Shown piece by piece: positions 52,043-52,465 of a DNA stretch of 64,000 bases. The translations under genes and the position numbers were made by a program. The stretch spans positions 1,240,001 through 1,304,000 of the forward strand of contig OX597822.1 of NCBI GenBank assembly GCA_951406725.2. The letters run 5' to 3'. The DNA comes from Octopus vulgaris. Lineage: Eukaryota. Every line of letters starts with the position of its first letter. Positions within the stretch are counted from its first letter, which is position 1. Under the pieces are notes generated by a model. It was not told the origin of the DNA. It made no database searches and worked only from the letters and a program-made list of their open reading frames with translations.

Positions 52043-52465
52043 GTCGCCATGATAGATCGTTAGCCACTACACACATTTTTTCTCTCCTTTTTTTTCTGTG
52101 TCCCTTTCTGTGGAAGAGCGTAGGCTCGAAACGTAAAATACCTTTTCTATTCCTGAGCGTTATACTAATACATCTGTTTGTTTTGTATACCGCCTGTCTT
52201 CGTCTTTTGTTGTTTTCGTAAACTCTCCCTATATATATATATATATATATATATATATATATATATATATATATCAGACGCCATGACAGATCGTTAGCCA
52301 CTACACACATTTTTTTCTCTCCTTGTTTTTTCTGTGTCCCTTTCTGTGGAAGAGCGTAGGCTCGAAACGTAAAATACGTTTTCTATTCCTGAGCGTTATA
52401 CTAATACATCTGTTTGTTTTGTACACCGCCTGTCTTCGTCTTTTGTTTTTTTCGTAAACTCTCCG
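52043..52465 (+). mobile_element. Tandem dimer of the ~190-bp hammerhead-like element (copies 2 and 3) separated by (TA)n
   Basis: 52043-52229 and 52276-52465, 236-bp period. Motifs CTGTGGA-A-GAGC(gtag)GCTC-GAAAC-GTA at 52108-52135 and 52344-52371. Confidence 0.88.

What the first reader, a model, noticed from the sequence alone, without database searches (positions are those of the whole stretch)
52043..52465. Tandem dimer of the hammerhead-like element: the geometry needed for double-hammerhead cleavage
Seen: two head-to-tail copies with motifs 236 nt apart. Both start at the same point (cgccatga) as the solo copy at 8982 and end at aaactctcc before (TA)n. Established: loop-less stem III hammerheads cleave as dimers, and tandem copies can release monomer RNAs that circularise, as in retrozymes and satellite hammerheads. 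Inference: a read-through transcript could pair the two ACGU palindromes and excise a ~236-nt RNA (52136-52371) containing an (AU)n tract able to anneal to new (TA)n targets.
Basis: partly seen in the sequence, partly recalled or inferred. Interest (0 to 1): 0.75.

Follow-up and report, generated by a model that had tools for sequence, protein, structure and literature searches.

The report
Tandem Penelope tails with altered hammerhead
These are two side-by-side tail pieces of a very common Penelope-type jumping gene that inserts into TA repeats; the pair is rare, old and probably does not release an RNA circle, but the whole family carries a hammerhead-shaped RNA with a changed core letter whose ability to cut is untested.

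Summary
The dimer is real: two ~190-nt copies, period 236, joined by (TA)22. The unit is not a retrozyme. It is the 3' end (pseudo-LTR) of a Neptune-like Penelope retrotransposon that inserts into (TA)n: one broken RT-endonuclease copy runs straight into a 95% identical end, and a sister subfamily has intact ORFs. About 0.3% of 3' ends (18 of ~5,900) are followed by another unit. The motif is a minimal hammerhead with covarying stems, but conserved A6 is U (18,928 versus 356 exact cores), and both dimer copies also lose a stem I pair. Of 58 copies, none starts at the cut site and 15 start at an initiator-like TCAG, so the templates look uncut. No descendant of this dimer was found among the fetched loci. 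The dimer is likely an old tandem of single origin; the proposed 236-nt circle is unsupported, though not excluded. The more interesting point: U6 is nearly fixed across subfamilies, including intact young elements, while only the hammerhead's free positions vary. The scan reported a similar Penelope mini-element with an altered core on other DNA of this genome.

The parts
52043..52229 (+). Copy 1: 3'-terminal piece (pseudo-LTR) of a Neptune-like Penelope element, starting 3 nt inside the TCAG 5' wall
   Evidence: homology to ORF-linked ends
52104..52139 (+). Minimal hammerhead-like motif 1: stem I 52105-52107 with 52136-52138 (fourth pair C52104/T52139 broken), core 52108-52115 with U at position 6 (52111), stem II GAGC/GCUC, GAAA, ACGU palindrome, predicted cut 52135/52136
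52230..52273 (+). (TA)22 spacer between the copies
52274..52465 (+). Copy 2: same pseudo-LTR piece, starting at the initiator-like TCAGA; shares three non-consensus bases with copy 1
52340..52375 (+). Minimal hammerhead-like motif 2, same U6 core and same shortened stem I, predicted cut 52371/52372
52466..52579 (+). (TA)n target microsatellite 3' of the insertion
8980..9174 (+). Solo copy of the same subfamily in a (TA)n tract; independent insertion (8 differences in 158 from each dimer copy)

Best explanation
The two units are 3'-end pieces (pseudo-LTRs) of a high-copy Neptune-like Penelope retrotransposon sitting in a TA microsatellite; they likely arose from one source sequence in an old event and probably do not release a mobile RNA circle. 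Shown: the unit is the element's 3' end, family copies mostly lie in (TA)n, tandems are rare, the core has U at position 6, and the two copies are each other's closest relatives. Inferred: the element's GIY-YIG endonuclease nicks a TA run; the RT primes on the short UA run that follows the pseudo-LTR in the RNA and copies about 190 nt back to the RNA's 5' end at an initiator-like TCAG, which gives the many solo copies with a common start and an uncut hammerhead. Most likely the RT did this twice on one RNA during a single insertion (a partial tandem, the usual Penelope product); an early duplication through the flanking TA runs is nearly as likely. The pair has since drifted apart, and its hammerheads are weaker than the family's.
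For: L172: a frameshifted RT-endonuclease body runs into an end 95% identical to copy 2. 11 of 20 fetched long-ORF loci have a related end (75-78% identical) on both sides of an RT + CxxC linker + GIY-YIG ORF. 28 places join this subfamily's own end to a short TA run and the element's 5' body, one (L250) continuing into the ORF. 18 head-to-tail junctions at gaps of 5-66 nt for 6,151 exact 3' ends, about 225 of them background. 5' ends: 15 of 58 at -5..-1, 4 further upstream, 0 within 3 nt of the cut, 43 carry the whole motif. Copies 1 and 2 differ at 3 of 139 sites against a background mean of 7.1% and share 3 derived bases, seen in 0 of 300 background pairs. Stem I has 4 pairs in 34 of 43 copies but 3 in both dimer copies. 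A6 changes lower activity (PMC3088659, section 8); minimal PLE hammerhead dimers cut weakly (PMC4209133); 1 of 9 genomic retrozyme dimers cut in vitro (bioRxiv 10.64898/2026.07.22.740005).
Against: Head-to-tail loci (14) exceed my TA-targeting null (0.9-3.4), and outnumber tail-to-tail joins 9 to 1 at gaps of 36-66 nt, so tandem formation is not mere chance; arrays of 3, 4 and 7 units exist. The motif looks conserved as a hammerhead: in 75 copies not picked on the core only N7 and H17 vary freely, and stems covary across families. Intact young elements have 5' repeats of 404-1,396 nt, which need longer-than-unit copying, as a circle would allow. The folding penalty is uncalibrated and also large (14-26 kcal/mol) for other natural pairs. 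The TCAG start is inferred from copy ends only. I cannot separate a single-event tandem from an early duplication.
Confidence: 0.75

Rival explanations
1. Incipient retrozyme: a read-through transcript folds the two motifs into a double hammerhead, releases a 236-nt RNA, which circularises and is re-inserted by the Penelope enzyme at new TA runs.
For: Geometry is right and nested. Tandems exceed the chance estimate and some reach 3-7 units. Pseudo-LTR-derived retrozymes are described (bioRxiv 10.64898/2026.07.22.740005). A TA run 25-30 nt upstream of TCAG could act as a TATA box, as proposed for a rotifer pseudo-LTR (PMC3846280).
Against: U6 core, 3-pair stem I, 24.8 kcal/mol penalty. Units differ at their 5' junctions, where a circle would repeat one junction. 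99.7% of ends are not followed by a unit. No copy starts at the cut. No other fetched locus has the dimer's core variant set. The circle's predicted stability comes largely from the AU hairpin (-44.3 versus -28.4 kcal/mol without it).
Confidence: 0.08
2. Two independent insertions: a second copy landed in the TA tail of the first because the family targets (TA)n; the shared bases come from a common source element or later gene conversion.
For: Five junction loci join clearly different units (11-22 differences in about 138), about the number that chance allows. The two 5' junctions differ, and some differences between the copies recur in other family members.
Against: Three shared derived bases occur in 0 of 300 background pairs and 2 of 2,064 in a set biased towards copy 1.
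Confidence: 0.12
3. The hammerhead is dead throughout this lineage and is kept for another job (promoter, splice or RT-binding signal); neither dimers nor full-length elements cut.
For: A6U is nearly fixed (72 of 73 copies); templates appear uncut; Naiad elements spread without canonical hammerheads (PMC8557442). In this subfamily the core reads as a polypyrimidine tract plus UAG, a splice-acceptor shape (seen in the sequence).
Against: The free positions are exactly N7 and H17, with G at H17 in only 1 of 75, which is the signature of selection on the hammerhead fold. The UAG holds only for the A7 subfamily. This rival concerns the family's motif and is compatible with the best explanation of the dimer.
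Confidence: 0.4

Closest known systems
Minimal type I hammerheads in pseudo-LTRs of metazoan Penelope-like elements (Cervera and de la Pena 2014, PMC4209133; parts 1-2 of 4 read, one of two supplements searched. Lunse et al. 2017 seen only as cited in the review PMC6765202)
   Same: In the pseudo-LTR; extra base between 9 and 10.1; G10.1-C11.1; palindromic 15.2/16.2 with no loop 3; short stem I; mostly found as single motifs from truncated elements.
   Different: A6 is U in about 98% of exact cores of this lineage; stem II is 4 bp rather than 7-8; the variant reported there is U3-A8.
Neptune-clade Penelope-like retrotransposons (as described in Craig et al. 2021, PMC8557442; passages and section 11 read)
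   Same: [quoted passage not shown]
   Different: Clade assignment rests on motifs, not on a tree. A sharp 5' wall at TCAG produces thousands of near-uniform ~190-nt solo ends.
Animal non-LTR retrozymes (Cervera and de la Pena 2020, PMC7229834, part 2 of 6 read; Li, Clavereau and Pollet 2026, bioRxiv 10.64898/2026.07.22.740005, parts 1-3 of 5 read)
   Same: Unit of 200-240 nt with one type I hammerhead, occasional dimers to 7-mers, derived from a Penelope pseudo-LTR.
   Different: Retrozymes such as the coral one have canonical, fast hammerheads, long arrays and abundant circular RNA. Here the core is altered, 0.3% of ends are tandem, and the unit is still the plain 3' end of a coding element.
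Penelope of Drosophila virilis (Schostak et al. 2008, PMC2377424; passages read)
   Same: Partial tandems arise often; the transcript starts inside the upstream pseudo-LTR at an internal promoter with an initiator.
   Different: The start site is mapped there and only inferred here from where copies end.

Membership tests
Penelope-like element pseudo-LTR (3' end) | Sequence forms the 3' end of an RT + GIY-YIG ORF element | tested here: met
   L172 body runs into a 95% identical end; L069, L105 and L250 likewise link related ends to coding sequence; Pfam RVT_1 2.7e-07, GIY-YIG 0.0069, the latter below its cut-off
Penelope-like element pseudo-LTR (3' end) | Partial-tandem structure with the same repeat 5' of the body | tested here: met
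   11 of 20 long-ORF loci; 10 measured have 5' repeats of 404-1,396 nt at 98.7-100% identity; 28 end-to-body junctions for this subfamily
Neptune clade | CX2-5CxxC linker before a C-terminal GIY-YIG with CCHH residues | tested here: met
   Read by eye in the translations of L155-L158 against the description in PMC8557442
Neptune clade | RT phylogeny groups with Neptune references | not tested
   No reference set was fetched
Hammerhead ribozyme (minimal type I) | Core C3 U4 G5 A6 N7 G8 A9 ... G12 A13 A14 A15.1, U16.1 H17 | tested here: not met
   A6 is U in both copies and in 72 of 73 copies not picked on the core; 18,928 versus 356 exact cores; all other core positions are met
Hammerhead ribozyme (minimal type I) | Stems I and II supported by covariation | tested here: met
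   26 hand-picked motifs: 7 of 8 pairs with two-sided changes, 88.9% paired, above all slid controls; rows are related and G10.1-C11.1 was fixed by the search pattern. In the dimer itself stem I is cut to 3 pairs
Hammerhead ribozyme (minimal type I) | Self-cleavage after NUH as a dimer | not testable with these tools
   Needs in vitro transcription; folding puts the active form 24.8 kcal/mol above the ensemble, uncalibrated
Non-LTR retrozyme | Tandem arrays with a complete hammerhead in each unit as a common form | tested here: not met
   18 junctions at 14 loci for about 5,900 ends; core incomplete (U6)
Non-LTR retrozyme | Monomer-length linear and circular RNA in tissue | not testable with these tools
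   Only assembled contigs were available, none on record as RNA
Non-LTR retrozyme | Spread as an independent non-coding unit | tested here: inconclusive
   Most copies are solo ends with a shared 5' wall, which fits either short cDNAs from full elements or self-propagating solo ends; internally deleted minis exist

The most novel reading that the evidence does not exclude
The A6U motif is a working natural hammerhead variant, fixed in a lineage of some 19,000 exact copies including intact young Neptune elements, where two motifs about 4.5 kb apart cut out the unit RNA for circular copying; TA-spaced dimers such as this one, given a TATA-like run ahead of the TCAG initiator by their own target, are retrozymes being born.
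Probability: 0.15. Interest if true: 0.65.

Novelty: new variant of a known kind. Interest (0 to 1): 0.32.

Why it matters
The dimer itself is an ordinary by-product of Penelope-type insertion. The family around it bears on an open question, whether the hammerheads of Penelope elements must cut for the element to move. Here a core base held to be essential is changed in nearly all copies, including intact young elements, while the rest of the fold is kept and the copied RNAs look uncut. One cleavage assay on natural U6 and A6 versions would either add a new active core variant or show that the fold is kept for something other than cutting. The 5' wall also offers a testable account of why solo pseudo-LTRs share one start.

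Tried and rejected
Rfam scan of the window: no match. The repeat finder was swamped by microsatellites. The 1 kb upstream of copy 1 is single-copy and is not a Penelope body. A strict junction pattern at gaps of 4-34 nt gave 1 hit, a 5'-extended solo copy and not a dimer. Pfam found nothing in three broken L069 fragments; the link came from a genome search with one of them. Sequencing runs: no RNA holder listed; contigs laid on the unit cannot show ends, strand or circles, and gave no joint at the cut site. A splice-acceptor reading of the core found no supporting joint in those contigs. A tree of 100 copies did not place A6 and U6 on separate branches (9 changes): A6 copies are scattered, as sporadic mutation would give, although one older group holds several, so the direction and number of A6/U6 changes are unresolved. 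Tail-to-tail control: 1 hit, itself an inverted duplication with flanks; too few for a test. Gaps over 66 nt, head-to-head joins and a genome-wide count of the dimer's variant set were not searched. Lunse et al. 2017 was not available, and it may list A6 variants. Searches for the variant in print: 'hammerhead'+'A6U', 'hammerhead'+'CUGUUGA', 'hammerhead ribozyme'+'octopus'+'Penelope', judged from listings only, and the supplements of PMC4209133 (one file not searchable) and PMC8557442 (2 of 5 hits of one term seen): none described it. bioRxiv supplements were not seen.

Full report
Observation. The window holds three copies of a ~190-nt element: 52043-52229, 52274-52465 and a solo copy at 8980-9174. 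The first two are head to tail, separated by (TA)22, period 236. Each carries CUGU(G/A)GA-A-GAGC-GUAG-GCUC-GAAA-CGUA flanked by UUU and AAA. This is the minimal type I hammerhead layout described for Penelope-like elements, with an extra base after A9, G10.1-C11.1 and a palindromic ACGU (PMC4209133), except that position 6 is U. Rfam gives no match.

The family. The genome is 2.8 Gb in 227 contigs; its repeat content looks to me like an octopus, which is recall and not a tool result. The U6 core with this stem II has 18,928 exact matches, the A6 version 356. The exact 3' end has 6,151 matches against about 225 for the reversed control. The 28 best non-self hits to copy 1 were not in head-to-tail tandem; most lie in (TA)n or related microsatellites.

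What the unit is. Some copies extend 5' through a CA-rich stretch into coding sequence. A genome search with one such fragment gave 150 scored matches, many in long open frames. [quoted passage not shown] By the motifs given in PMC8557442 this is Neptune-like; no tree was built. These ends are 75-78% identical to the unit and also carry U6. In 10 measured elements the 5' repeat is 404-1,396 nt long and 98.7-100% identical to the 3' end (L158 left out because its two ends differ), so they are young partial tandems. L172 is a frameshifted body that runs into an end 95% identical to copy 2. This subfamily also has 28 places where its end is joined through a short TA run to the element's 5' body; one continues into the ORF and several are internally deleted minis with two ends 270-910 nt apart. 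The unit is therefore the pseudo-LTR of a coding Penelope-like element.

Where copies start. In 30 copies picked by the 3' end alone (the first 30 along contig C1) and 28 body-linked ends, 15 of 58 start at -5 to -1, within TCAGT, and only 4 reach further upstream; 0 start within 3 nt of the predicted cut and 43 hold the whole motif. A second cluster lies in the T run at +29 to +37. TCAGT is an initiator-like word (recalled); Penelope transcription starts inside the pseudo-LTR (PMC2377424) and a rotifer pseudo-LTR has a TATA plus TCACT (PMC3846280). I infer that the wall is the 5' end of a linear, uncut RNA, and that solo copies are short cDNAs primed at the UA run after the 5' pseudo-LTR. A circle with one fixed TA-TCAG junction could also make such a wall, but the spread of start points and the wall in body-linked ends fit a start site better.

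How common are dimers. Head-to-tail junctions with exact end words number 9 at gaps of 36-66 nt and 9 at 5-35 nt, at 14 loci in all, this one included: 0.3% of ends. A rough null for random insertion into TA runs gives 0.9-3.4, so there is an excess. Of the 12 loci that passed the length filter (L058 and L062 did not), five join unlike units (11-22 differences in about 138), which chance explains; one is intermediate; six, including arrays of 3, 4 and 7 units, join like units, some with a repeated junction, as local duplication would give. Tail-to-tail joins: 1, an inverted duplication.

This dimer. The copies differ at 3 of 139 sites in the 3' part (background mean 7.1%) and share three derived bases, which 0 of 300 background pairs do. 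They have one source. Their 5' junctions differ, as two rounds of copying to a ragged 5' end would give; an early duplication through the TA runs followed by drift also fits. One shared base breaks the fourth pair of stem I, which is intact in 34 of 43 family copies. The constrained double-hammerhead fold is 24.8 kcal/mol above the ensemble, against 14.1-25.5 for 11 rows of other natural pairs, one a duplicate; this is uncalibrated and ignores tertiary contacts. No other fetched locus has the dimer's core variant set, and the best non-self hit is 96% and lacks two of the three variants. In two runs of one study a contig with 7-8 differences in 467 nt runs from the unique flank 24 nt into copy 1; that is under the 31 nt needed to count as bridging, so it is only a hint that the insertion is old.

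The hammerhead question. In 75 copies found by position, protein or 3' end, position 6 is U in 72 of 73, N7 takes all four bases and H17 is A or U in 73 of 75; core positions average 96% majority against 87% elsewhere. Contigs from four runs show the same: apart from CpG decay only N7 and H17 vary within the motif. Across 26 hand-picked motifs of this and other families, stems I and II covary. Other families with different stem II mostly keep A6. So the fold appears to be under selection with U6. A natural A6C variant cuts slowly (PMC3088659); minimal PLE dimers cut weakly; 1 of 9 frog retrozyme dimers cut. I found no description of a natural A6U in the searches listed under Tried and rejected; Lunse et al. 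2017 could not be read.

Verdict. The dimer is best read as an old, single-origin tandem of Penelope pseudo-LTR pieces, a known product of these elements, and a poor candidate for double-hammerhead release of a circle (about 8%). What deserves a bench test is the family-wide U6 core. Earlier notes of this scan describe true retrozyme-like arrays and another Penelope mini-element with an altered core in this genome; I did not check them, and they are not evidence here.

Noticed in passing
window 54134-56898 (+): Near full-length non-LTR retrotransposon with one frame break near 54900; the 670-aa frame hits Pfam RVT_1 at 7e-32. It looks RTE-type (recalled) and ends in an (ATT)n run.
   Followed up: partly
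L155-L171, e.g. G000:C2:34638000-34647999 (-): Young intact Neptune-like elements with near-identical partial-tandem repeats of 404-1,396 nt and a fixed short TA junction between the 5' end repeat and the body; good material for testing circular versus template-jump copying.
   Followed up: partly
L245, L247, L252, L253, L261, L269-L271: Internally deleted non-coding minis (end - short body - end, spacing about 270-470 nt) of the same subfamily; these, not TA-spaced dimers, are its natural two-hammerhead forms.
   Followed up: partly
L208 (G000:C23:44071924-44074958) and L061/L211 (G000:C23:44300735-44304012): A 7-unit and a 3-unit array about 230 kb apart share the same unusual junction, suggesting local spread of one tandem; units of the larger array differ at 1-3 sites.
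   Followed up: partly
L089, L105/L106, L123, L124 and G000:C4:149565567-149565830: Inverted pairs of ends, as known for Penelope insertions; L124 duplicates its flank too.
   Followed up: no
window 52073-52115 and 9015-9058: Polypyrimidine tract followed by the core; in the A7 subfamily it reads as a splice acceptor (UAG). No supporting joint was seen in contigs.
   Followed up: partly
window 41101-41540 and 42934-43373: 440-nt inverted repeat, 99% complementary, 1,393 nt apart; much of it may be microsatellite.
   Followed up: no
genome-wide: 1,366 further minimal-hammerhead matches with other stem II sequences; those of other families mostly keep A6.
   Followed up: partly
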